A DNA stretch of 64,000 nt from a virus. Below the pieces are notes generated by a model, which was not told the DNA's origin, made no database searches, and saw only the letters and a list, made by a program, of their open reading frames with translations. Shown here piece by piece: positions 3,001 to 64,000 of the stretch. The translations under genes were made by a program, and so were the position numbers. The DNA lies in the IMG/VR virus record IMGVR_UViG_3300048582_000084, positions 17,137-81,136 of that record; one strand, written 5' to 3'. Position 1 is the stretch's first letter. Every line of letters starts with the position of its first letter.

Positions 3001-5387
3001 TCGGCGGCGCTATCGGCCCAGGCAACCCTCGGTCCTTTGGTCACGTCGGCGTCGAGAGCCGCGACGGTCGTCTTGCTATCACAGGCAGCGGCGGAAAAAA
3101 TACTGACGTCGAAGCTCTACTGAGTTCCGCTCGTCGCGAAATTGAGAGCCTGAACGATCAGCTCGATCAGCGCGGCTGGAGCCTCGGCGGCTCGACCTAT
3201 CTCGGCAACGGCGTAGCCGACATCGAGCAGTTCGATACGCTGGGTGAAAGCACGGCACTGCGGCTGCGGACAGGCGACGCTAGGGTAGATGGAGCCATCG
3301 CCCGCGCTGATGGCGCGAGCCTGGAACGCCAGTTTTCGGTTGCCGAACGCGCCCAAAGTTTCGCAGACCAGCTTGACCAAATGACTAACGCGATCAAGGA
3401 CGCCACCAATCCGCTTGGCGGCATCACGCGAGAATTTGACGAGCTATGGGAACAAGCCGACCGTCTGGGCTTTGGTTGGGATCAGGTCACAGAGGCTGCC
3501 AATAACGCGGTCGCTGAATTCAATCGTAACCGCTATCGCGCGAACGAAGACGCCGCTATGGGTTTCGAGGGTCGCGCCGCCGGTACTGATCGTGCCAAGC
3601 AACTAGCCGCTCAGCAGCGTTCTCTTCAAATCGAACAACAGCGGGAGCGTGAAGACCTAGAGCGGGAACTGATGGCTCTAGGCCTAGATGCTCAATGGGT
3701 TGCCAATCTTCGCCCAGAACTTGAGCGCGCGCAGGCTGTAGAGACGGCAGCGATGGTGAAGGCGTGGGAAGCTCTATGGCGCTCTCAGCGCGAAGCTGTT
3801 GAGGGTCTATCGATCCGTGCTGACCGCGCTCGCGCATCGGTCTCTGGTAACGCTATGGACGCGCAGGGTGCAGACCTTCGCGCCTTTGACCTCCAGGCGT
3901 CCGGTGAAATCATTGACACACGACAGGCCCTTCTCGACCTAGGCCTAGCGGCTGACGCCGTTGAAGCGGAAATCCTCAAGCTTATCGCTACGCACGGGCT
4001 GGAGCGGCAGGCTATTGCCGAAACTTACCAAGCCCGGCGCAACGCTATCGCGACGTCGCTCGACGACCGACTGTTCGCGGCAACCACCGACACGCAGGGG
4101 CTTTCCGGAGCCTTGGCCGCGTTCGAACGGGCGGCTTCTCGGGAACGCGAGCAGGCTGCACGCGAGGGTCTTACGAACCTCGTCCAGCTAGAGGCTGTCC
4201 ATGCGGCCGAGCGTGCTGACCTGATCGAAGAGTTCGCCCGTCAATCCGCTGATCGCATCCGTGCGCTGGGCGGGAGCATTCGGTCCTTCTTGGATGGTCT
4301 CAGCACCGACGCGAGCATCACATCGCCTCAGGATCGTCTGGCGGCTGCTCAAGAGCAGTTCGGGCGCGACCTGACGCTGGCGCGCGGCGGCGATGAAGAA
4401 GCTCTCGGGCGGATCACCGGAACAGCGGATACGCTGCTGACTGCGGGTAAGGACATGTACGCGTCCAGCCCGCAGTTTCAGGCCATTCTGTCTATGGTTC
4501 GGTCGAGCCTTGAAAACCTACCCGCCGTCAAGAACTACGACGCGCTTATTTTGGCTGAATTGCAGAGTCTTCGTGACGGTATCGCCGTCGGCGTTGATCT
4601 TGAGGTCTTCCGTGTTATCACGGAAGCTCTGAACGCGCTGTCTCCTGTGGACCGGGAACGCCTTATCCAAGCTGCTACGGTTCTCCGCAACATCACGCAG
4701 ACTGTTCAGACGCCGAACGGCGACTCTCTGATCACTGAAGCCAATATCACGCGGCAGATTCAGCTAGGCTTCGACTACGCTGTGGCTAACCAGTTCTCTT
4801 ATCTGCACAACCTTGCGGATATTCGCATGTTTCTGTCGCATATTCGGGACATGGCTCGCGGCGGCGCTGGTGGTCTGCGTGTTACGACCTATCAGGCCAG
4901 CGGCGCGGCCAATGACGACTACGCTCGCGGATCGTCCAGCCAGATTAACCCACTGTTCAACCCACTTCCGGCGAGAATCGGCGGCGTAGTCCGCAACTAC
5001 GGCGGGCTTCAGTCCGGTGGATGGGTCGGGAACGGCGCATGGAACCGCGACAGTGTCATCGCTGGTTACGCGGGAGGCGGGTCGATCATGCTGGCCGGTG
5101 GTGAACATGTCACGAACGCTGTCCAGGCCGCTCGATATGAGCCCATTTTGAATAGCATCAATACTGGCGACTATAACCCCAACTTCGGGGGAGGCGAGAT
5201 GACAGCTCAGCTCTCCGCTCTAGCCTCTCAAGTTGCGATGCTTAACACTCAGGTCTCTAACCTACGCGAAGAAGCCGCACGTACCGCTGAAGCAGCGGAG
5301 CGAACGGCCGACGCTGCGGAAGATACCGCAAAGACGAACAAGACAATGGCACGAAACGAAAGTGTCGCGGCTCGGAGGGTGGCGTAA
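12..5387 (+). CDS. Tail tape measure protein (probably 5'-truncated by window edge)
   Basis: 1791-aa Ala/Arg/Glu-rich helical ORF with Gly/Ala hydrophobic stretches and C-terminal GGWVG...DSV...LAGGEHV motif typical of tape measure ends; followed by tail genes. Confidence 0.9.
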   Translation: MRLQMGDRLPIAMAALKAAMERVDGGIVDVNKRFEEGTIDVRRYAMAFVEEINRMSGGAEALQRTSTSLSAAFGRLSTEFLRFSQALGEGGLTNATITVTENLRNLMETARESGALNVLGDVLEKLANSMNLFVAAGVALGALFAGRMVQALISFAAAASPVVRVLSLLAGGAVLAFEMIDRVTSSGRAFNTFNSAMRDFNTSAENVRGTISQFNNVLSQNTQQLSSSSTAVERRIEALRRLGEGEAEATRIAAAEERRRIQIRAESMRADLARAEAAQATQNRQALGRTGRAFVDGFNNSRAIANSPRFNNIADDASAHVVARYNAGIQVVTDFTSGVLTAREAVRKLNETFADGTMPSEIDAIRRAINEASMSEQFTASEEAIRSARRELESIDRAIAEFAAKYSNAINIQINMDLVRRELADAPNTGQNGRNVQPLSGVDAQGNRTGVDGTTASEITRNPTPARAAQAVRTALTEHNLDRTIDGGNRFGFDARAVSDRELITQLRGNPLFRNLLPGASAALGRVNINEGGGGNAARLGNAVGELVQDINRQADAAGVAEGAAKAYADALNRLKDAAANAQGGIDINAASTEVLAAVTRRLNSEYEAFNRYAAQAMASNNEVADAYIRSSEAGQQAELRIRAMTEARKTAIEFEADGVTRTALYNQRVNELITTLGQAEQAERGLAAAREISRNNDEIEVLEAESRLIASNADAREREVAAIRARQQARGSGREDAAGLSAARVVELRQRNELMSNSWNEMGRVAEQAFERVGSAITEAFAKGEIRAVKFSNIYRAIVSEIIQATLRMAVLNPILNSALGGSRPTMAGLFQAQASGAASSGSGSSGIVGGAASIAGMGTSINNWWNGTSSTSAAPASGASGGFAGLAGIGASISNWWNGTPATAAAASTYMGPGALADGAGFQAAGAGAAPAAASGAAGGAGSMLGGMALGFGLGSMAGGLVAGNSRPRQQNAQIGAAIGAVALGPIGGLAGGLIGGAIGPGNPRSFGHVGVESRDGRLAITGSGGKNTDVEALLSSARREIESLNDQLDQRGWSLGGSTYLGNGVADIEQFDTLGESTALRLRTGDARVDGAIARADGASLERQFSVAERAQSFADQLDQMTNAIKDATNPLGGITREFDELWEQADRLGFGWDQVTEAANNAVAEFNRNRYRANEDAAMGFEGRAAGTDRAKQLAAQQRSLQIEQQREREDLERELMALGLDAQWVANLRPELERAQAVETAAMVKAWEALWRSQREAVEGLSIRADRARASVSGNAMDAQGADLRAFDLQASGEIIDTRQALLDLGLAADAVEAEILKLIATHGLERQAIAETYQARRNAIATSLDDRLFAATTDTQGLSGALAAFERAASREREQAAREGLTNLVQLEAVHAAERADLIEEFARQSADRIRALGGSIRSFLDGLSTDASITSPQDRLAAAQEQFGRDLTLARGGDEEALGRITGTADTLLTAGKDMYASSPQFQAILSMVRSSLENLPAVKNYDALILAELQSLRDGIAVGVDLEVFRVITEALNALSPVDRERLIQAATVLRNITQTVQTPNGDSLITEANITRQIQLGFDYAVANQFSYLHNLADIRMFLSHIRDMARGGAGGLRVTTYQASGAANDDYARGSSSQINPLFNPLPARIGGVVRNYGGLQSGGWVGNGAWNRDSVIAGYAGGGSIMLAGGEHVTNAVQAARYEPILNSINTGDYNPNFGGGEMTAQLSALASQVAMLNTQVSNLREEAARTAEAAERTADAAEDTAKTNKTMARNESVAARRVA

Positions 5388-8116
5388 TGCCTTACCTCCT
5401 CCGCGCGCAGCCTTACGATGAGGCTCTCCCAGGTATCCGAAGCCTATATTTCAGTGATGTGGGCTTCACTACCACTCCCGCAGAATCACCCGCGAACGTC
5501 TACTGGGACCGCCGTATTGAGGTTCCTTTGGTAGTTCAGCAGAGCCTATTCTCGGACAGTTCGGTCGGTGGTCGGAGCGAGATCAGCTTCGGTCGCATCA
5601 GTCTGGCTAACGATGACGGCGCTCTAAATGTTCTTGGAGATTACGACTGGGACGGTCGCCTCATTGAGGTACTGTACACAGAAAAAGAACGGCCGGTTTA
5701 TGCTGATTTCATTGCTGTTTTCAGCGGCACCGCCGAGCAGTTTCTTCTTGGTGATATCGTTGAGATTGAGGTCCGAGACCTTCAAATTCTGTTTGAAGAG
5801 CCATTTCAGCCGAGCAAATTCCTTGGAACAGGCGGCGTCGAAGGCCCTACCGAGTACACCGGTCGCCGTAAACCTCACCTTCTCGGGACAAAAAGACAGT
5901 TCACGCCGTTGCCTCTTGATCCCGCAAATCTAGTGTGGTGCTACCACAGCGGTCCAGCAGGCGGCGTCCTGGGAGTTAAGGACTCTGGCGCCGATCTCCC
6001 CTATGCGGGCGACTACCCGAGCTACGCCGCGCTTATCGCTGCGTCCATCCCTGCTGGTCAATATGCGACATGTAATGCTCTTGGACTTCTGCGTTTGAAT
6101 GCTCCACCAATCGGCGTACTCACTATTGATGCTGAGGGTCAGCGCGAAAATCTTCTGATTTCTCCTTTCACGCTGACCCGCACTCAAGCGGGCGGCGCGT
6201 CTTCGACTGCATTGAACAGCGACGGTTTGACTTGGCGCGAGTATGTCGCCAACGCCGCGCGCACGAACGGAACCGCACGCGGTCGCCTTCTTGAGGGCGA
6301 ACGGACCAACGGTATCCGGAACATTCGGGCAGAGGGCACAGCGGGCGCACTTCCTACCAACTGGGCACGCGTCAACGCCGGATCGGGTGTTAATCCTACA
6401 TATTCCGCGATTACAGCGAACGGTATGACAGGACTTCGAATCACATATGTCGGAACCACCGCAGGCGTTCCGGGTACGGAAACTATCGAGTTCGATGGGC
6501 GAACTCCCGGTATTTTCGCCGCGAACGCGGGGGTTCTTATCAACAGCTCGTTTTTCTACCGCCTATCCAGTGGAGCCCTGCCTGTAGGCGCTCCGGTTGT
6601 ACAGAATCGAATTGTTACCTTCAACAATGCTGGCACTGTTATCGCCGCTACTGGTCAAAATTTTACGGCGTTGGATGGTGACATTCGCAGGACTTCCCAC
6701 ACCCACACCCCCGCCGCAGGCGTTGGAGTAAACGGTAGAGCTATCAGCGGTATTCACTTTGGGACGTGGCCCGCGAGTACTGCTGTAAATTTTTCTATCG
6801 ACGTTTTTTGGCCGCAACTTGAGACGGGGTGGTCTGCCTCGTCCCCAATTCTTCCGACAAGCGGCACTCCCGCTTCGGCTACTCGCGGTTCCGATATTGT
6901 TTCTGCTCCTTTGTCTTCCTTGGGTGTACCTTCGACGGGAACATGCACGGTTCTGTGGAGTGGCGTAATTCCACAACAATCCCCGACAGGTTTTGGTCAA
7001 AACCTAGTACAGCTTGAACAAACTGGCTCAGACGCCAACAGCTATAGGCTCCGCAACCCCGCTGCCAGCAACAGTATTGATTTGATGCGAGTCAACGCAG
7101 GCGTTGTTAGCAGCATCTCTCTTGGCACGATGACTCCGGGCACGGCGTTTAGAGCGGGTTTCGTTATCAACGGTTCTGGCCGAATGGCTGGAAGTTTCAA
7201 CGGCGGCGCGGTTCAAGCCGTGACTGGAGGCGTGACGACAGGCCTGACGGACATGCGGGTTGGAAACATTGTCAGCGGACTACAACCGCTGTTCGGTGAT
7301 GTTGCTGTGTTCCGTGTGCTTCCATACGCCCTATCAGACGCGGACCTCCAAACCGCAGTTGCGGCCCTGCCCGTCGTTAATGGGACGCTGAAAACTTTTG
7401 CCGATATCGCCCAGCACAGTATTCTTCGCTCTGTCCCTCTGACCCTCGCAGATTTCAACCCGACGACTGTAAGTGCGCTGAACACTAGCTGTTCGCAAGG
7501 CCTAGGTTACTGGTACGGTGGAGATTCCGAAGAACCACTACGTGGTGTACTGGACACACTCGCGTCGAGTGTGGGCGTTTATTACGGGTTTGACGAGTCG
7601 AGGAAGATTTTCTTCGGACGGTTCGAGGCTCCAGCCGTCACGCCTGACTATGTGTTTAGTGAGCGAGACATTTACGACCTTCAACCTATCCCAGCGGATC
7701 GCCGCCTCAAGACTCAGATCGTAGCGTGGGGAGAGCGCGTCAGGCCTCTGGAAGATCAAGAGATTGCCGGTACCATTACTGGAACCTCACGAACCGCTTT
7801 GATGGAGAAGTGGCGGCTTGAGACCCATACAAGTTCTTCTGTCGCGACAGCTTCCCTACTCGCGCGCGAAGAACGCATTGATAGCTCCTTCGACGTCCTT
7901 GCGGATGCTCAGAACGAAGCGCAGCGCCGTGTTGCGCTCTTTGGTCCACGCCGTCAGGCGTTCACCGTGGAGGTCCCATTCACGCCGAACCTGCGACCAG
8001 GGCATACTGTCGAACTTCAAGACAGTCGCCTCATCGGTGTGGCTAAGCGCTTTCGGGTTCTTAAGATCGAGCGAGACGCGTCCGAGCAGAGAGTTACAAT
8101 GGAAGTTTGGGGATGA
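5387..8116 (+). CDS. Tail/baseplate hub-like protein with large internal beta-rich (carbohydrate-binding-like) insertion
   Basis: Directly follows TMP (TAATG overlap); central ~400 aa resembles the 9724..10983 protein. Confidence 0.7.
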   Translation: MPYLLRAQPYDEALPGIRSLYFSDVGFTTTPAESPANVYWDRRIEVPLVVQQSLFSDSSVGGRSEISFGRISLANDDGALNVLGDYDWDGRLIEVLYTEKERPVYADFIAVFSGTAEQFLLGDIVEIEVRDLQILFEEPFQPSKFLGTGGVEGPTEYTGRRKPHLLGTKRQFTPLPLDPANLVWCYHSGPAGGVLGVKDSGADLPYAGDYPSYAALIAASIPAGQYATCNALGLLRLNAPPIGVLTIDAEGQRENLLISPFTLTRTQAGGASSTALNSDGLTWREYVANAARTNGTARGRLLEGERTNGIRNIRAEGTAGALPTNWARVNAGSGVNPTYSAITANGMTGLRITYVGTTAGVPGTETIEFDGRTPGIFAANAGVLINSSFFYRLSSGALPVGAPVVQNRIVTFNNAGTVIAATGQNFTALDGDIRRTSHTHTPAAGVGVNGRAISGIHFGTWPASTAVNFSIDVFWPQLETGWSASSPILPTSGTPASATRGSDIVSAPLSSLGVPSTGTCTVLWSGVIPQQSPTGFGQNLVQLEQTGSDANSYRLRNPAASNSIDLMRVNAGVVSSISLGTMTPGTAFRAGFVINGSGRMAGSFNGGAVQAVTGGVTTGLTDMRVGNIVSGLQPLFGDVAVFRVLPYALSDADLQTAVAALPVVNGTLKTFADIAQHSILRSVPLTLADFNPTTVSALNTSCSQGLGYWYGGDSEEPLRGVLDTLASSVGVYYGFDESRKIFFGRFEAPAVTPDYVFSERDIYDLQPIPADRRLKTQIVAWGERVRPLEDQEIAGTITGTSRTALMEKWRLETHTSSSVATASLLAREERIDSSFDVLADAQNEAQRRVALFGPRRQAFTVEVPFTPNLRPGHTVELQDSRLIGVAKRFRVLKIERDASEQRVTMEVWG

Positions 8117-60660: not shown

Positions 60661-60685
60661 TTCTCTCTAGGAGGGTTGAGTATTC
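60661..60685 (-). promoter_or_regulatory. Candidate phage-RNAP promoter GAATACTCAACCCTCCTAGAGAGAA
   Basis: Identical 25-mer at 43369-43393; variants at 50683-50706 and 27796-27818. Confidence 0.6.
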
Positions 60686-61316
60686 AGGCGTTGATCCAGG
60701 CAGCATCGTGATCGACGTTGCTGTCGAAAATGGCGAACTCGACCTCGACCTTCCCGACGTCGAACGAGAAGTACCGGAGCGCGGATACAGTCGCCTCGAC
60801 ATCATCCTGAAATGACCCTGCCGTGGTCTGGTAGTCTCGGAGAGTCAGCATCATGATGGGGTCTCCCGTAGCGGCTCGCTTGAACACGTTGCGGCTGAGG
60901 TGCGCGTCCATGCTCTCTGCGATGCTCCGCAGTTTCTGAAAACGCCCATCCGGCACAACGACCTGAATGTGGCTTTCGAAATAGCGGTTCTCAGGCATCT
61001 TGGGCCGGTCCAACAACGAAGATGCTGCCGGATGCCAAGGCACGGTCTCGACCTTTGTTCGGACGACGTCGAAGCCAAAAGCCATCATAGCGTGCTGGAG
61101 CAGGTATAGGTGTTGGGGGACGTCCTTGGTCGCCGCCGAAATGCGAGACGACGTCATGACGTCTTCCAGCACGGTGGTCCCTGTTCGGTCCTGAAGATCG
61201 AGGATGATCGGCTTGACGCCCATCTCCACACAGGCCGCTCGGAACGCCTCGATGGATTCCGGCTTTCGGACAGTCAGGTGAATCTCAAAAGGATAGGTAA
61301 CTAGGTCGGGCTGCAA
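60684..61316 (-). CDS. Hypothetical protein (duplicated ferredoxin-like E.H motifs)
   Basis: FEIHLTV / YFESHIQV, VRTKVE, HLSRN. Confidence 0.65.
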   Translation of the reverse strand: MQPDLVTYPFEIHLTVRKPESIEAFRAACVEMGVKPIILDLQDRTGTTVLEDVMTSSRISAATKDVPQHLYLLQHAMMAFGFDVVRTKVETVPWHPAASSLLDRPKMPENRYFESHIQVVVPDGRFQKLRSIAESMDAHLSRNVFKRAATGDPIMMLTLRDYQTTAGSFQDDVEATVSALRYFSFDVGKVEVEFAIFDSNVDHDAAWINA

Positions 61317-61371: not shown

Positions 61372-62793
61372 TCAGCCGACCTTGTAGCGGTCGTTCATGA
61401 TGGCGTTCAGCATGATGTCCTCGGGCGTGAAGTTGTCACCATTCAGCAGCGCCTTCAGCAGCGCAGGCGAGTAGCCGCCCACCAGGGCCGTGCCGTCGTC
61501 CCGAATGGTCACCGGGTTGTTGCCCAGGCGAGCGTTCAGGTTCCAGAACACGATCTGCGGCATCGCGTATCCGGCCTTCGCATAGGCCTTGCGGACCATG
61601 TCGAGCGCGGTAGCATTGTCGCATGCCTTATCGAACTCCATATCCGACAGGATCAGGAGCTTGCGCGGCATGTCCTGCGGCGCGACGTTGTTCGCGACGG
61701 CGATTTCCAGAATCTTCCGGAACGCCGCATCGATGTTGGTCGAACCCATGAAGTTGTCATTGATCTTCGCCAGCTTCGCCTTGAGCGACATCGTGTCAGC
61801 AAGCTGCACGACGCGGGTCGAGGACGAGAAGGTGAAGACGAGGTTCTTGAAGGCACCCGTCTGGCGTTCGGCGGTATAGAGGCCGAGCGCCATCGCCGTG
61901 TCGCGGCAAGTGACCGACGACTTGCTTTCCCTTCCGCCGAGAGGGCAGCACATCGAACCGGAGAGGTCGATGAGGGGCAGAATCCCCGCGTCGCTGCCCA
62001 GGTAGTCGGGCAGGGAACGCCACTGCGCCTCGGCCACGACCGTGTCGCCACGGCGATACCCGGAGATGACGTCGTGCGGGAAGATCGCGGACGCGTTCAC
62101 CTTCGCGGTGCCATCGTTCTTGACCAATGCAGCCTTGTAGGCCGCATAGGCCTCGACGGCGCGCTTGTTGAACGCCTTCTGGTAACGCTTCGCCGCGACC
62201 GACGGGACGTGGCTGAAGTTGATGCTGTCCCATTCGCGGGCGCACATCTTCTGCTCGACCGTGTCGGACAGCCCGACGATCAGCTTCCGGTATCCCTTCG
62301 GCGTCAGTCCGAGAGCCTTGCGAAGGGCTTCGGCATCGGCACCCTTGCGGGGCATCCACTTCGCCGCCAGTCGGTCACCGTTGGTGAGCCCCTGGTCGAT
62401 GAAGGCGAACGCGAAGTCTCGGGCGGCGTCGCCGACTGCAAACAGATCGTCCCAACGGCCGACCTCGGGCGTCTTGGTGACGACCAGGGCAGCGTCGTTT
62501 GCGTTGATCTGGGACAGCCAGGACAGCAGGTAGCGGAAGGTCTGACGCTCGCCAGCGCCGCCGCGAATGTCGCGGAGCCAGAGCAGGGTACGCAACGCGT
62601 ACTCGCGGTTCTCCGCATATGCGCGCTGGAAGAGGATGAGGGCCTGGGCCTCCTTGCCACGCATGGCCGGGGCCTGGGCGAAGAAGTCCACGCACGCGCT
62701 GTGCGTCGTGAGGTTGGTGGCGGCACCGTTCGTGGTGCGGCTGAGATTGGAGCCAGCCCCGTTGGAGCGGGCGGCGGCGGATGCAAAGGTCAT
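61372..62793 (-). CDS. DUF2828-type TROVE-like/vWA protein (Ro60-related)
   Basis: T.NGA, RDIRGGAGER, GRWDD, AAKWMPR, VPS.A, QW..L, vWA MIDAS DLSGSM, STN, SDMEFD, P.IVFWN, GYS. Confidence 0.88.
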   Translation of the reverse strand: MTFASAAARSNGAGSNLSRTTNGAATNLTTHSACVDFFAQAPAMRGKEAQALILFQRAYAENREYALRTLLWLRDIRGGAGERQTFRYLLSWLSQINANDAALVVTKTPEVGRWDDLFAVGDAARDFAFAFIDQGLTNGDRLAAKWMPRKGADAEALRKALGLTPKGYRKLIVGLSDTVEQKMCAREWDSINFSHVPSVAAKRYQKAFNKRAVEAYAAYKAALVKNDGTAKVNASAIFPHDVISGYRRGDTVVAEAQWRSLPDYLGSDAGILPLIDLSGSMCCPLGGRESKSSVTCRDTAMALGLYTAERQTGAFKNLVFTFSSSTRVVQLADTMSLKAKLAKINDNFMGSTNIDAAFRKILEIAVANNVAPQDMPRKLLILSDMEFDKACDNATALDMVRKAYAKAGYAMPQIVFWNLNARLGNNPVTIRDDGTALVGGYSPALLKALLNGDNFTPEDIMLNAIMNDRYKVG

Positions 62794-62822
62794 TGGGTTA
62801 AGTCTCCTGAGTGGGTTGGTAG

Positions 62823-62880
62823 CAGGCTGCTCCCTTTGCTTCAGAGTTAAGGTCTGATGGGATGTGTGCTGTGGGCAGCC
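62823..62880 (-). ncRNA. Structured leader RNA of the TROVE/vWA gene (Y-like end stem plus anticodon-arm-like hairpin)
   Basis: GGCTGC-CCACAGCA...TCCC..TCAGA-CCTTAAC-TCTGA..GGGA-GCAGCC-TG. Confidence 0.55.
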
Positions 62881-62907
62881 TTCAAAAAAAGACCCCTTGC
62901 GGGGGTC

Positions 62908-63102
62908 TCAGTCCAAGTATTCTCTATCATCTTCCGGCTCAACCGGAGACGGCGTCTGCCCGGCAGCGCGCTCGATGTCGTCCGCAATCTCGTACAGTCG
63001 AGCGCGGATGTCGTTGCTGCGGTCGTTTGGGCGATGGTCGGGCGCTGGATAGGTGTCGCGAATCCACTGCGCGTGGGCGAGGAGTTGGGCGGTGGTGGGC
63101 AT
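62908..63102 (-). CDS. Hypothetical protein
   Basis: AAGGA RBS; lies between the ncRNA cluster and the TROVE gene. Confidence 0.55.
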   Translation of the reverse strand: MPTTAQLLAHAQWIRDTYPAPDHRPNDRSNDIRARLYEIADDIERAAGQTPSPVEPEDDREYLD

Positions 63103-63159
63103 GGTAAGTCCTTGATGGGGTTCGGTAAAAAAGCCCCCAGGGCCTTACACCAAAGGGCT

Positions 63160-63283
63160 CCGCGCCCCCACCGCCAGCCTTGCGGTTCCTCCGGATTATG
63201 AGTCCGGTGTGCTTTCTATCGTTGACGCGATGTGGCCTAGGCCTGCTGCCTTTCGGCGGGACTGCTTACCCGTCAAAGTAAGC
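63160..63283 (-). ncRNA. Structured RNA with CAU anticodon arm and possible pseudoknot
   Basis: CCGGA-CTCATAA-TCCGG; loop TTGACG complementary to downstream CGTCAA; flanked by terminators. Confidence 0.5.
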
Positions 63284-63326
63284 AAAAACCCATCAGACAT
63301 TTCTGTCATGATGGGTCTGGAAGATC

Positions 63327-63428
63327 GCTCCTAGTGACGCTGGACCTTCAAAGCGGTCCCCCTCTTGTTCGGTCGGGGGCTCTGACTCTCTTGCGAGTAC
63401 CTAGCCCCGTTATCGCGCGATTCGGAGC
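63327..63428 (-). ncRNA. Putative multi-stem ncRNA
   Basis: GCTCC/GGAGC closing stem, GGGGCT/AGCCCC and GGACC/GGTCC hairpins; between terminators. Confidence 0.4.
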
Positions 63429-63467
63429 AAAACGGGAGCCCTGGGGCTCCCGTACTATTACTACGCA

Positions 63468-63652
63468 TGCTGTTGGCCGGTTTCGATACCGACTTAGGAT
63501 TTACGAACCTGTTTTGTGGGTTTGCCGACACCGGACAGTCGTCTTCTAAGTTCTTGCGAACAAGGTAGCCACCACATTTTACTCAGCGATGTCTTGACCA
63601 TCTAGGGATTCGGGCATCGCCTTGCTGCGTGTCCTTCCACGCCGCAACAGCA
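63468..63652 (-). ncRNA. Putative multi-stem ncRNA
   Basis: TGCTGTTG/CAACAGCA closing stem enclosing several hairpins; followed by terminator. Confidence 0.4.
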
Positions 63653-63674
63653 GAAACGTCCCTTTCGGGACGTT

Positions 63675-63787
63675 CAGGATACGCATTTTTACGCGTGCTT
63701 CTACTGCACCACCGCCGCGCATGTGCGGCGACCAGGGATTGCACCTGGGTCTCGCCCTCCAAATGGTTATAGTTGCTGTAGGTATCC
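63675..63787 (-). ncRNA. Y RNA (YrlA)-like circularly permuted tRNA mimic
   Basis: GGATAC/GTATCC end stem enclosing T-arm, closed acceptor stem and D-arm in permuted order. Confidence 0.7.
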
Positions 63788-63820
63788 AAAAAGAGCCCGA
63801 AGGCTCTTAGCTCTTAGTTG

Positions 63821-64000
63821 TCAGAAACGCTCCATGTACGAGACGTCCTCGACTCGAACCCAGAATCCATCAGTGTAGAAAGTCACCGAATGCGCGAACA
63901 TGGAAGCGAAGGAGTTCCAAGCCTGTTCCGCAGTCGCGTCGTCAGTCGCTGAGAGGTCGAGTTCCTTGATAAGCCCGCTCTTGAAGAAGAAACGGACGGA
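63821..64000 (-). CDS. Hypothetical protein, 5' end outside window
   Basis: Open frame ending ...VEDVSYMERF* before a terminator. Confidence 0.45.
   Translation of the reverse strand, partial: SVRFFFKSGLIKELDLSATDDATAEQAWNSFASMFAHSVTFYTDGFWVRVEDVSYMERF

What the first reader, a model, noticed from the sequence alone, without database searches (positions are those of the whole stretch)
63160..63283. Non-tRNA RNA displaying a perfect CAU anticodon arm plus a possible pseudoknot
CCGGA-CTCATAA-TCCGG (63191-63207, - strand) is a textbook Met/Ile2 anticodon arm preceded by a D-arm-like GATAGAAAGCAC. There is no T-arm, acceptor stem or CCA. The unit begins with hairpin GCTTAC[TTTGACGG]GTAAGC, whose loop is complementary to CGTCAA ~45 nt downstream, and it carries GAAA/GCAA tetraloops. 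Inference: a decoy for CAU-tRNA-specific nucleases (e.g. VapC-type toxins that cut tRNA-fMet) or for modification enzymes.
Basis: partly seen in the sequence, partly recalled or inferred. Interest (0 to 1): 0.7.

Follow-up and report, generated by a model that had tools for sequence, protein, structure and literature searches.

The report
Kissing-loop cloverleaf RNA beside Ro60-like gene
This is a real, conserved non-coding RNA of a phage that folds like a tRNA-shaped cloverleaf held by a loop-to-loop contact, but its "Met anticodon" is not kept in the only relative found, so it is probably not a decoy aimed at tRNA-Met enzymes.

Summary
The sequence features are all there on the minus strand: the CCGGA-CTCATAA-TCCGG hairpin and the 5' hairpin whose loop is complementary to CGTCAA. 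An anticodon-like loop on its own is within chance.

One relative was found, metagenome contig L049, whose DUF2828 protein is 71% identical. A covariance model built from the window alone hits it once in 598 kb (34.8 bits, E 3.6e-5).

The two copies share a five-helix cloverleaf (P2-P6) and a 5' hairpin (P1). The 6-nt P1 loop pairs with the 6-nt P3 loop. All 78 of 78 cells are paired, and 17 of 39 pairs changed on both sides.

The P4 stem covaries, but its loop is CUCAUAA here and CCGAAAU in L049. CAU and U33 are not conserved, so a CAU-specific decoy is not supported.

tRNA, YrlA and all other Rfam models fail to match. The unit lacks the ACAGCAA handle of its neighbours.

Best reading (0.42): a tRNA-shaped protein-binding RNA of the Ro60-like (DUF2828) locus. 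Main rival (0.30): a cis-acting leader or attenuator.

The scan has noted the wider DUF2828/handle-RNA system in at least 129 genomes, but this unit in no other window.

The parts
63288..63316 (-). Terminator-like hairpin of the preceding RNA unit. Its U-run (63288-63284) runs into P1.
   Evidence: Read from the sequence. Not listed by the consensus scan, probably because the T's count as part of the stem.
63263..63284 (-). P1: 8-bp hairpin (63284-63277 with 63270-63263) with the 6-nt loop UUGACG (63276-63271).
   Evidence: Pairs checked by script. In L049, 6 of 8 pairs changed on both sides and 2 on one side, and all stay paired.
63242..63262 (-). Linker. It holds the GCC-GAAA-GGC hairpin (63257-63248), which is found only in this window.
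   Evidence: Not conserved in L049, where the stretch reads CCUCUUUACAACAAACAGA.
63234..63241 (-). P2 5' strand (CCUAGGCC) of the closing helix of the cloverleaf.
   Evidence: RNAalifold consensus. It makes 6 pairs with 63151-63143, all paired in both sequences. None is compensatory and one changed on one side.
63218..63231 (-). P3: 4-bp hairpin (63231-63228 with 63221-63218). Its 6-nt loop CGUCAA (63227-63222) pairs with the P1 loop, forming a kissing contact.
   Evidence: P3 has 2 of 4 pairs changed on both sides. The kiss is paired 6 of 6 in both sequences, with one compensatory change. Neither helix was in the model that made the alignment.
63208..63217 (-). Junction J3/4, AGAAAGCACA. The AAAGCA is conserved.
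   Evidence: Identical AAAGCA in L049. It resembles the AGAGCA that precedes anticodon stems in real tRNAs.
63191..63207 (-). P4: the anticodon-arm look-alike, CCGGA-CUCAUAA-UCCGG.
   Evidence: L049 has CUCUG-CCGAAAU-CAGAG. Four of 5 pairs changed on both sides and the loop is not conserved.
63187..63190 (-). Junction AGGA, in the position of a 4-nt variable loop. Conserved.
63170..63186 (-). P5: ACCGC-AAGGCUG-GCGGU.
   Evidence: L049 has GCCAC-UUGGGUUG-GUGGU. One pair changed on both sides and one on one side.
63153..63169 (-). P6: GGGGG-CGCGGAG-CCCUU.
   Evidence: L049 has GCGUC-AUCGUGGGAC-GGCGU. Three of 5 pairs changed on both sides.
63143..63151 (-). P2 3' strand, inside the conserved 11-mer UUGGUGUAAGG (63153-63143).
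   Evidence: The 11-mer is identical in L049. It could instead pair with GCGYCAA (7 bp, no compensatory change).
63125..63146 (-). Terminator-like hairpin AAGGCCC-UGG-GGGCUUU plus a U-run. It overlaps the P2 3' strand at 63146-63143.
   Evidence: Pairs checked. Modelled energies: cloverleaf without terminator -61.6, cloverleaf with terminator -52.1, another fold with terminator -61.5 kcal/mol. Not listed by the consensus scan. L049 has no U-run here.
62908..63102 (-). 64-aa ORF just downstream, with Shine-Dalgarno AAGGA at 63113-63109.
   Evidence: GC at codon positions 1, 2, 3 is 0.69, 0.46, 0.72, which looks coding. No Pfam or PHROG family.
61372..62793 (-). Context: 473-aa DUF2828 + DUF7788 protein with Ro60-like architecture.
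   Evidence: Pfam PF25043 2.2e-42 and PF11443 7.9e-25. vWA_Ro60 scores 20.2 bits, below its cut-off of 27.7. phrog_850 'RNA-binding protein' 8.7e-139.
63677..63787 (-). Context: unit 1 of the same array. It is closed by GGAUAC/GUAUCC and carries the ACAGCAAC handle.
   Evidence: Its L049 counterpart matches Rfam YrlA at 36.5 bits, E 3.8e-6, below the gathering score of 69.

Best explanation
Unit 4 (63284 to about 63125, minus strand) is a conserved non-coding RNA that folds on its own.

Shown:
- It forms a five-helix cloverleaf: closing helix P2, then hairpins P3, P4, P5 and P6.
- A 5' hairpin, P1, precedes it. The six-base P1 loop pairs with the six-base P3 loop.
- In outline it matches a class-II tRNA: P2 = acceptor, P3 = D arm, P4 = anticodon arm, P5 = variable arm, P6 = T arm.
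- It lacks every tRNA sequence hallmark apart from the P4 loop of this one phage.

Inferred:
- It is one of the small RNAs of the array beside the Ro60-like (DUF2828) gene. Other units there are YrlA-like tRNA look-alikes.
- It works as a rigid, tRNA-shaped RNA that proteins dock on. These could be tRNA-recognising enzymes or proteins of the locus itself.
- The kiss fixes the D-position loop, as the T-loop does in a real tRNA.
- P4 offers an exposed loop that varies between phages. The CAU triplet here is one variant and not the point of the RNA.
For: Non-coding: stop codons in all three frames, and flat GC across codon positions against GC3 of 0.72-0.86 in neighbouring genes.

Homologue:
- A model built from the window sequence alone, holding only P1, P4 and P5, gave 1 hit in 98 loci (597,752 bases).
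- The hit is L049 1563-1703, full length, 34.8 bits, E 3.6e-5, with all 18 pairs standard.

Structure:
- RNAalifold returns P1-P6.
- With the kiss added, 39 pairs give 78 of 78 cells paired. Seventeen pairs changed on both sides: P1 6, kiss 1, P3 2, P4 4, P5 1, P6 3.
- Slid controls gave 32-52% paired and 1-4 double changes.
- The window's 99-nt core folds to the same cloverleaf as its minimum-energy structure. So does the whole unit.

tRNA-like layout:
- Real tRNAs show AGAGCA, then the anticodon arm, then AGGU, where this unit has AAAGCA, then P4, then AGGA.
- Among the best outside hits of its models are real tRNAs. L081 tRNA scored 15.1 bits, E 0.033. L137 tRNA-Arg scored 11.3 bits, E 0.53, aligned with P3 as D arm, P4 as anticodon arm and P6 as T arm.

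Context:
- The unit lies in the RNA array upstream of the DUF2828 gene in both genomes.
- L049 unit 1 matches YrlA.
- In L137 a handle stem encloses a whole tRNA-Arg-like body with an anticodon arm.
Against: - There are only two sequences, and the alignment was fitted to three of the seven helices.
- P2 has no compensatory change. A rival 7-bp pairing of GCGYCAA with UUGGUGU exists.
- blastn and nhmmer do not detect the homology.
- Folding energies are not better than shuffles: z = -0.64, -0.93, -0.19 and -0.17.
- The minimum-energy fold of L049 is not the cloverleaf.
- The tRNA resemblance is weak. Rfam tRNA and YrlA give nothing at E up to 10 on 231 bases. ARAGORN finds nothing. The tRNA hits of my own models are not significant, and the top outside hit of R1 (19.2 bits, L156-L158) lies in a coding region.
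- The unit lacks the ACAGCAA handle, so nothing links it physically to the DUF2828 protein.
- In L049 no terminator ends it and an ORF starts 38 nt later. There it may simply be a 5' UTR.
- I have no transcript data.
Confidence: 0.42

Rival explanations
1. A cis-acting structured leader, that is, an attenuator or riboswitch-like element for the next gene. When the cloverleaf with its extended closing helix forms, it sequesters both strands of the terminator-like hairpin. Transcription then reads on into ORF64, and perhaps into the DUF2828 gene. When the cloverleaf is not stabilised, the terminator forms. The stabilising factor, whether a protein, a ligand or the kiss itself, is unknown.
For: - In 2 of 2 genomes the element lies directly 5' of a same-strand ORF with a Shine-Dalgarno sequence. 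Here P2 ends at 63143 and the ATG is at 63102. In L049 P2 ends at 1703 and the ATG is at 1742.
- L049's ORF is a real phage family, phrog_8472, 8.9e-22. ORF64 has coding-like GC3.
- The P2 3' strand overlaps the 5' strand of the terminator.
- Constrained folds: cloverleaf without terminator -61.6, cloverleaf plus terminator -52.1, and another fold with terminator -61.5 kcal/mol. The two states exclude each other and have nearly equal energy.
- The conservation pattern is that of an aptamer core: junctions conserved, stems covarying, loops free.
- There is no handle.
Against: - The two downstream ORFs are unrelated. A shared regulated function is therefore not evident.
- L049 has no U-run terminator. 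I could not show a convincing Shine-Dalgarno-sequestering alternative there.
- In this gene-dense, one-strand region almost any intergenic element is followed by an ORF.
- Hairpin plus U-run ends every unit and gene nearby, so it need not be regulatory.
- Near-isoenergetic alternative folds are common for 165-nt RNAs.
- No known riboswitch family matches.
Confidence: 0.3
2. One reading: a decoy that shows a Met/Ile2 (CAU) anticodon arm to CAU-specific anticodon nucleases, such as VapC-type toxins, or to modification enzymes.
For: - The loop CUCAUAA with a 5-bp stem is exact, and it is the only CAU-type arm in the window.
- None of the 8 tRNAs ARAGORN finds in this window is a tRNA-Met.
- An unchecked first-reader note of this scan says the phage carries many tRNA and RNA repair genes (e1-6114593).
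- Earlier reports of this scan describe handle RNAs joined to anticodon arms in other phages.
Against: - The only homologue keeps the stem but has the loop CCGAAAU, without CAU or U33.
- A CAU-type arm is expected by chance about 0.1 times per window, and any anticodon-like arm about 8 times.
- I found no paper describing an RNA decoy of this kind in searches. I saw listings and abstracts only.
Confidence: 0.07
3. A divergent member of the ACAGCAA-handle RNAs. P2 followed by ...CGYCAAC would be a remodelled handle that still binds the DUF2828 protein.
For: - CGUCAAC and CGCCAAC share 5 of 7 letters with CAGCAAC.
- The motif follows a closing-helix 5' strand, as the handle does.
- The unit lies in the same locus in both genomes.
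Against: - The exact motif occurs once in the window, at 63767-63780.
- In unit 4 the look-alike letters are engaged in P3 and the kiss, which covary.
- L049 lacks the leading ACA.
- This was not tested with a handle model, because no model builds were left.
Confidence: 0.08
4. A decaying tRNA pseudogene, or chance hairpins in a spacer.
For: - The anticodon-like arm and the tRNA-like spacing.
- Fold z-scores near zero.
- Sequence searches see no homology.
Against: - Seventeen compensatory pair changes with no broken pair across seven helices are not expected under neutral decay.
- The window-only model finds L049 at E 3.6e-5.
- The homologue is not a tRNA either.
Confidence: 0.05

Closest known systems
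YrlA-type bacterial and phage Y RNAs bound by Ro60/Rsr (Rfam RF02553; Chen et al. 2014, PMC4201824: abstract and passages read)
   Same: Both are small non-coding RNAs encoded next to a Ro60-type gene, and both imitate parts of a tRNA. A neighbouring unit in the relative L049 matches the YrlA model (36.5 bits).
   Different: Unit 4 gives no YrlA match. It has no T-loop/D-loop elbow and no 5'/3' end stem of the Ro-binding kind. It keeps an anticodon-position arm, which YrlA replaces. The protein partner family is DUF2828, not Pfam TROVE.
Deinococcus radiodurans Yrn1 (Chen et al. 2014, PMC4201824, passage in section 6)
   Same: The paper models Yrn1 with a potential 'anticodon arm' with a 5-bp stem inside a Y RNA.
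   Different: According to the paper, Yrn1's loop has 6 nt and no variable arm. Unit 4 has a 7-nt loop, two more hairpins and a kissing hairpin. There is no sequence relation.
ACAGCAA-handle RNAs beside DUF2828 genes
   Same: Same locus, same strand, same style of short structured units ending in a hairpin plus U-run. tRNA-derived parts are a recurring cargo, for example L137 168-239.
   Different: Unit 4 has no closing stem followed by ACAGCAA. It was found in only 2 genomes and is absent from the 76.9-kb record of the other close relative, L133.
Class-II tRNA cloverleaf (Rfam RF00005)
   Same: Five helices in the same order, a 5-bp arm with a 7-nt loop, and a 4-nt junction after it. Among the best outside hits of the unit's models are tRNAs.
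   Different: No match to the tRNA model or to ARAGORN. No T-loop, G18G19, U8 or CCA. There are 10 nt instead of 1 between P3 and P4. The D-position loop is held by an extra hairpin.
ON-type transcriptional riboswitches, in which the closing helix competes with a terminator (recalled from general knowledge, for example the pbuE adenine switch; not checked in a paper here)
   Same: The 3' strand of the closing helix overlaps the 5' strand of the terminator. Junctions are conserved and stems covary.
   Different: No ligand or known aptamer class. The relative has no terminator. The downstream genes are unrelated.
Anticodon-arm mimicry in mRNA leaders (E. coli thrS operator) and viral tRNA-like structures with pseudoknots (TYMV TLS). 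Both are recalled and were not checked here.
   Same: RNA that copies tRNA parts to be read by tRNA-binding proteins, with long-range pairing building the shape.
   Different: In those cases the anticodon-like loop is the conserved, recognised part. Here it is the least conserved part.

Membership tests
tRNA (Rfam RF00005 / ARAGORN) | Recognised as a cloverleaf by tRNA models | tested here: not met
   ARAGORN finds 8 tRNAs in the window and none here. Rfam gives nothing at E up to 10 on 4 kb or on 231 bases. Relaxed ARAGORN calls only unrelated structures that do not use the CAU arm.
tRNA (Rfam RF00005 / ARAGORN) | 7-nt anticodon loop with U33 and purine 37 | tested here: inconclusive
   Met in 1 of 2 sequences: the window has CUCAUAA, L049 has CCGAAAU.
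tRNA (Rfam RF00005 / ARAGORN) | T-loop UUCRANY, D-loop GG, acceptor 3' end with CCA | tested here: not met
   The P5 and P6 loops are AAGGCUG and CGCGGAG. After P2 comes AAGG-CCC. The consensus letters are recalled.
YrlA-type Y RNA (RF02553) | Match to the family covariance model | tested here: not met
   No match at E up to 10. The neighbouring unit 1 of L049 does match at 36.5 bits, below the gathering score of 69.
YrlA-type Y RNA (RF02553) | Encoded beside a Ro60 (TROVE + vWA) gene | tested here: inconclusive
   The neighbour is DUF2828 + DUF7788. vWA_Ro60 scores 20.2 bits, below the cut-off of 27.7.
YrlA-type Y RNA (RF02553) | Binding of the end stem by the Ro60 ring | not testable with these tools
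   This needs a binding assay.
ACAGCAA-handle RNAs of DUF2828 loci | 6-10-bp closing stem directly followed by ACAGCAA(Y) | tested here: not met
   The exact motif occurs once in the window, at 63767-63780. Unit 4 has CGUCAAC inside P3.
ACAGCAA-handle RNAs of DUF2828 loci | Same strand and neighbourhood as a DUF2828 gene | tested here: met
   Here the unit lies 332 nt upstream of the gene (its U-run ends at 63125, the gene starts at 62793). In L049 it lies about 790 nt upstream.
Transcription attenuator / riboswitch-like leader | Lies 5' of a same-strand ORF | tested here: met
   2 of 2 genomes.
Transcription attenuator / riboswitch-like leader | Folded core and terminator exclude each other | tested here: inconclusive
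   In the window they do in the model: -61.6 against -52.1 kcal/mol when both are forced. L049 has no U-run terminator.
Transcription attenuator / riboswitch-like leader | A ligand or protein that shifts the balance | not testable with these tools
   Unknown.
Intramolecular kissing-loop complex | Two hairpin loops with Watson-Crick complementarity, kept by compensatory change | tested here: met
   UUGACG/CGUCAA here and UUGGCG/CGCCAA in L049. Both are 6-nt loops closed by covarying stems. Duplex energies are -5.5 and -7.6 kcal/mol. n = 2.

The most novel reading that the evidence does not exclude
A tRNA-shaped sensor RNA. In this reading the kissing-locked cloverleaf is a bait whose exposed, phage-specific P4 loop is recognised or cut by a host tRNA-targeting defence enzyme. 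Loss or capture of the fold would flip the overlapping terminator. The attack would then be coupled to expression of the downstream small gene and the Ro60-like repair module. That would combine a decoy and a riboregulator in one RNA.
Probability: 0.1. Interest if true: 0.8.

Novelty: new variant of a known kind. Interest (0 to 1): 0.5.

Why it matters
Phages with Ro60-like (DUF2828) genes carry arrays of small tRNA look-alike RNAs whose roles are untested. This unit shows that the arrays also hold handle-less RNAs with their own conserved architecture: a five-helix cloverleaf whose D-position loop is held by a separate hairpin. It also shows that an apparent anticodon can be incidental. If the RNA is bound by tRNA enzymes, or if it gates a terminator, it would give a simple handle on how these phages sense or blunt attacks on tRNA. 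With only two sequences and no transcript data, it remains a well-defined candidate and not an established new class.

Tried and rejected
- **Known RNA families:** no credible match; every listed match scored far below its family's gathering score.
- **DNA relatives in the phage collection:** none.
- **First 47 IMG/VR loci (DUF2828 at most 52% identical):** no homologue. Two short blastn matches in L012-L014 fell inside a coding ORF.
- **Exact-pattern scans:** Viral contigs gave 4 hits and 86 hits, of which the 80 listed were scanned. Genome contigs gave 3 hits. All were chance matches by inspection or by model R1.
- **R1 hit in L156-L158 (19.2 bits):** lies in a 416-aa ORF and has unpaired stems, so it was rejected.
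- **Structure-only descriptor (hairpin, loop complement, two hairpins):**
  - 20 raw hits in 1,189,515 bases, against 10 in three shuffles.
  - Apart from the window and L049, all hits were AT-rich stretches I took for chance matches; one (L137) spans real tRNAs and a handle unit. I did not check whether they are coding.
- **Full model R3:** no further member in 172 sources.
- **Antisense target of the P4 loop (TTATGAG):** one other site, fewer than chance.
- **CCCCATCAA as a shared signal:** 21 matches against 12.1 expected, and 2 of 100 shuffles reach it. Dropped.
- **Promoter scan:** no sigma-70-like site in 62700-64000.
- **Shared small ORFs between the window, L049 and L133:** none.
- **Sequencing runs:** none was listed, and no RNA holder was listed.
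- **Literature searches:** 13 (DUF2828), 27, 70 and 98 found no description of such an RNA. I saw listings and abstracts, passages of PMC7824862 and passages of PMC4201824.
- **Supplementary files:** closed. The supplemental tables of Chen et al. 2014 listing phage Y RNAs could bear on whether such loci were covered.
Full report
**Where it lies.** The window is the last 64 kb of an 81,136-bp virus record estimated to be 41% complete. The finding sits on the minus strand in a gene-poor stretch of about 1 kb (62794-63820). That stretch lies upstream of a 473-aa protein at 61372-62793. The protein carries DUF7788 (2.2e-42) and DUF2828 (7.9e-25), plus a sub-threshold Ro60-vWA match of 20.2 bits against a cut-off of 27.7. 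PHROGs names the family 'RNA-binding protein'. The only ORF in between is a 64-aa one at 62908-63102.

**Checking the observation.**
- ARAGORN finds 8 tRNAs in the window, none of them here.
- Rfam gives nothing meaningful at E up to 10, either on 4 kb or on 231 bases.
- The anticodon look alone is weak evidence. The window holds 206 hairpins of 5 Watson-Crick pairs with a 7-nt loop. Of these, 25 fit Y32-U33-R37 and one carries CAU. Fifty block shuffles gave means of 7.8 and 0.10.
- Folding energy is unremarkable: z = -0.64, and 43 of 200 shuffles fold at least as well.

**Context.**
- The motif ACAGCAAYTWWAA occurs once in the window (63767-63780). It also occurs in 16 of the first 47 related loci, mostly just upstream of the DUF2828 gene. 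It is flanked by a stem that covaries between loci.
- This is the handle-RNA family that earlier reports of this scan describe in at least 129 genomes. A follow-up on this same window covers unit 1.
- In the relative L049, the counterpart of unit 1 matches Rfam YrlA at 36.5 bits, E 3.8e-6, below the gathering score of 69.
- The locus therefore looks like a Ro60/Y-RNA-type system. Published accounts place a tRNA-like RNA partner beside ROT/TROVE proteins in some phages (PMC7824862, passage; PMC4201824, abstract and passages).

**Finding a homologue.**
- No DNA relative exists in the phage collection.
- All 710 phage records holding a DUF2828 relative are below 60% identity.
- IMG/VR gave 47 loci at 52% identity or less.
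- A protein search showed seven relatives at 69-72% (P0002-P0008). Only P0004 could be reached another way, as L133.
- In L049 I saw by eye a collinear set of features at 1563-1741.
- blastn and nhmmer do not report this similarity.
- As an unbiased test I built a model from the window sequence alone, holding only P1, P4 and P5. I searched 98 loci (597,752 bases) with it. It gave one hit: L049 1563-1703, full length, 34.8 bits, E 3.6e-5 (the calibration is rough), with all 18 pairs standard.
- No other member appeared in any search:
  - model R1 over 65, 63, 44 and 80 sources;
  - the whole 76.9-kb record of L133;
  - model R3 over 172 sources;
  - three exact-pattern scans;
  - a structure-only descriptor.

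**The structure.** RNAalifold on the model-made alignment returns six nested helices. In window coordinates they are:

| Element | Coordinates | Note |
|---|---|---|
| P1 | 63284-63277 / 63270-63263 | loop UUGACG |
| P2 | 63241-63234 / 63151-63143 | closing helix |
| P3 | 63231-63228 / 63221-63218 | loop CGUCAA |
| P4 | 63207-63203 / 63195-63191 | loop CUCAUAA |
| P5 | 63186-63182 / 63174-63170 | |
| P6 | 63169-63165 / 63157-63153 | |

- The P1 loop is fully complementary to the P3 loop in both sequences: UUGACG/CGUCAA here and UUGGCG/CGCCAA in L049.
- Counted over 39 pairs, 78 of 78 cells are paired and 17 pairs changed on both sides: P1 6, kiss 1, P2 0, P3 2, P4 4, P5 1, P6 3. Slid controls gave 32-52% paired and 1-4 double changes.
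- Caveats:
  - n = 2.
  - The alignment was fitted to P1, P4 and P5.
  - P2, P3 and P6 were chosen after looking at the alignment.
  - P2 has no compensatory change.
  - GCGYCAA could instead pair with UUGGUGU.
- The window's core and whole unit fold to this cloverleaf as their minimum-energy structures. L049's core does not. The z-scores are near zero.

**What is and is not conserved.**
- Conserved: the helices, the kiss, and the junction letters AAAGCA, AGGA and UUGGUGUAAGG.
- Not conserved: the P4 loop (CUCAUAA against CCGAAAU), the other loops, and the GAAA hairpin of the linker.
- The CAU triplet and U33 are therefore not under visible selection.

**Likeness to tRNA.**
- The helix order matches a class-II tRNA.
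- Real tRNAs in the loci read AGAGCA, anticodon arm, AGGU where the unit reads AAAGCA, P4, AGGA.
- Among the best outside hits of the unit's models are genuine tRNAs: L081, 15.1 bits, E 0.033, and L137 tRNA-Arg, 11.3 bits, E 0.53. In the second, P3, P4 and P6 align to the D, anticodon and T arms. These scores are not significant, and the top outside hit of R1 was a coding-region stretch.
- tRNA models do not recognise the unit.
- I therefore call it tRNA-shaped, not a tRNA and not a recognisable pseudogene.

**Function.** Two readings remain.
1. A stand-alone shaped RNA of the Ro60-like locus that proteins dock on. The support is its place in an array of terminator-delimited RNA units, the tRNA look-alike theme of the neighbours, and L137 168-239, where a handle stem encloses a whole tRNA-Arg-like body.
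2. A cis-acting leader.
   - In 2 of 2 genomes the unit lies just 5' of an ORF.
   - L049's ORF is phrog_8472. ORF64 looks coding.
   - In the window the P2 3' strand overlaps the terminator-like hairpin. Modelled energies are -61.6 kcal/mol for the cloverleaf without terminator, -52.1 for the cloverleaf with terminator, and -61.5 for another fold with terminator.
   - Against this reading: the downstream ORFs are unrelated, and L049 has no U-run there.

I rate reading 1 at 0.42 and reading 2 at 0.30. The lower-rated readings are a CAU-specific decoy (0.07), a remodelled handle (0.08) and neutral decay or chance (0.05).

**Novelty and verdict.** No Rfam family matches. My literature searches found no description of such an RNA. 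The scan holds no look-alike of this unit in other windows, although it has reported the surrounding system many times. I class it as a new variant of a known kind: a tRNA look-alike non-coding RNA of a Ro60/Y-RNA-type locus. It is supported by only two sequences and has no expression data. Interest is 0.5.

Noticed in passing
L137:148-250: A handle unit (AGGATAGTT-ACAGCAA ... AACTATCCT) encloses a complete tRNA-Arg(UCU)-like cloverleaf with a canonical anticodon loop. ARAGORN calls it a tRNA at 168-239. The same locus holds a second tRNA-Arg(UCU) at 7216-7292.
   Followed up: partly
window 60684-61316 (-): A 210-aa protein with two histidine motifs, EIHLTV and ESHIQV, seen by eye, which may be 2H-phosphoesterase-like. 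It has no Pfam or PDB sequence match. It matches phrog_25995 and the C-terminal part of phrog_1247. Among 171 DUF2828 loci it occurs only in the two close relatives L133 and L049. It sits in a different place relative to the RNA array in each of the three genomes.
   Followed up: partly
L133:2800-5000: At least seven handle units lie in 2.2 kb. Three carry T-arm-like GGTTCGAAT hairpins (about 3128-3236, 4011-4127 and 4157-4287). There is also a handle-less unit between two terminators (4748-4905) that resembles none of the window's units.
   Followed up: partly
window 62823-62880 (-); L049:2399-2470; L133:4907-4975: A short handle unit sits in the leader of the DUF2828 gene. Its inner 5-bp hairpin keeps the loop CCUUAAC, while the stem is swapped between the window (UCAGA/UCUGA) and L049 (UCUGA/UCAGA). 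L133 has UCCCG-CCAUAAA-CGGGA there.
   Followed up: partly
window 63125-63830 (-): Every RNA unit starts with G directly after the U-run of the preceding hairpin. The consensus terminator scan listed none of these hairpins, probably because the T's can pair into the stem. No sigma-70-like promoter was found in the stretch, so how the array is transcribed is open.
   Followed up: no
L007:3880-3916 and similar AT-rich loci: The 5' strand of the handle stem (TAGAAT, TAGGAT, TATAGT) looks like a -10 hexamer, and a TAGACA-like -35 lies about 17-18 nt upstream. A promoter may overlap the stem, which would put the transcription start at odds with the covarying stem.
   Followed up: no
window 63234-63245 (-); L049:1600-1610: A tandem AGRCC repeat in and before the P2 5' strand changes in both copies together: AGGCC-U-AGGCC here and AGACC-C-AGACC in L049.
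   Followed up: no
L049:1742-1954: The 70-aa ORF after the L049 copy belongs to phrog_8472 (function unknown, 8.9e-22). It has no counterpart in the window or in L133.
   Followed up: partly
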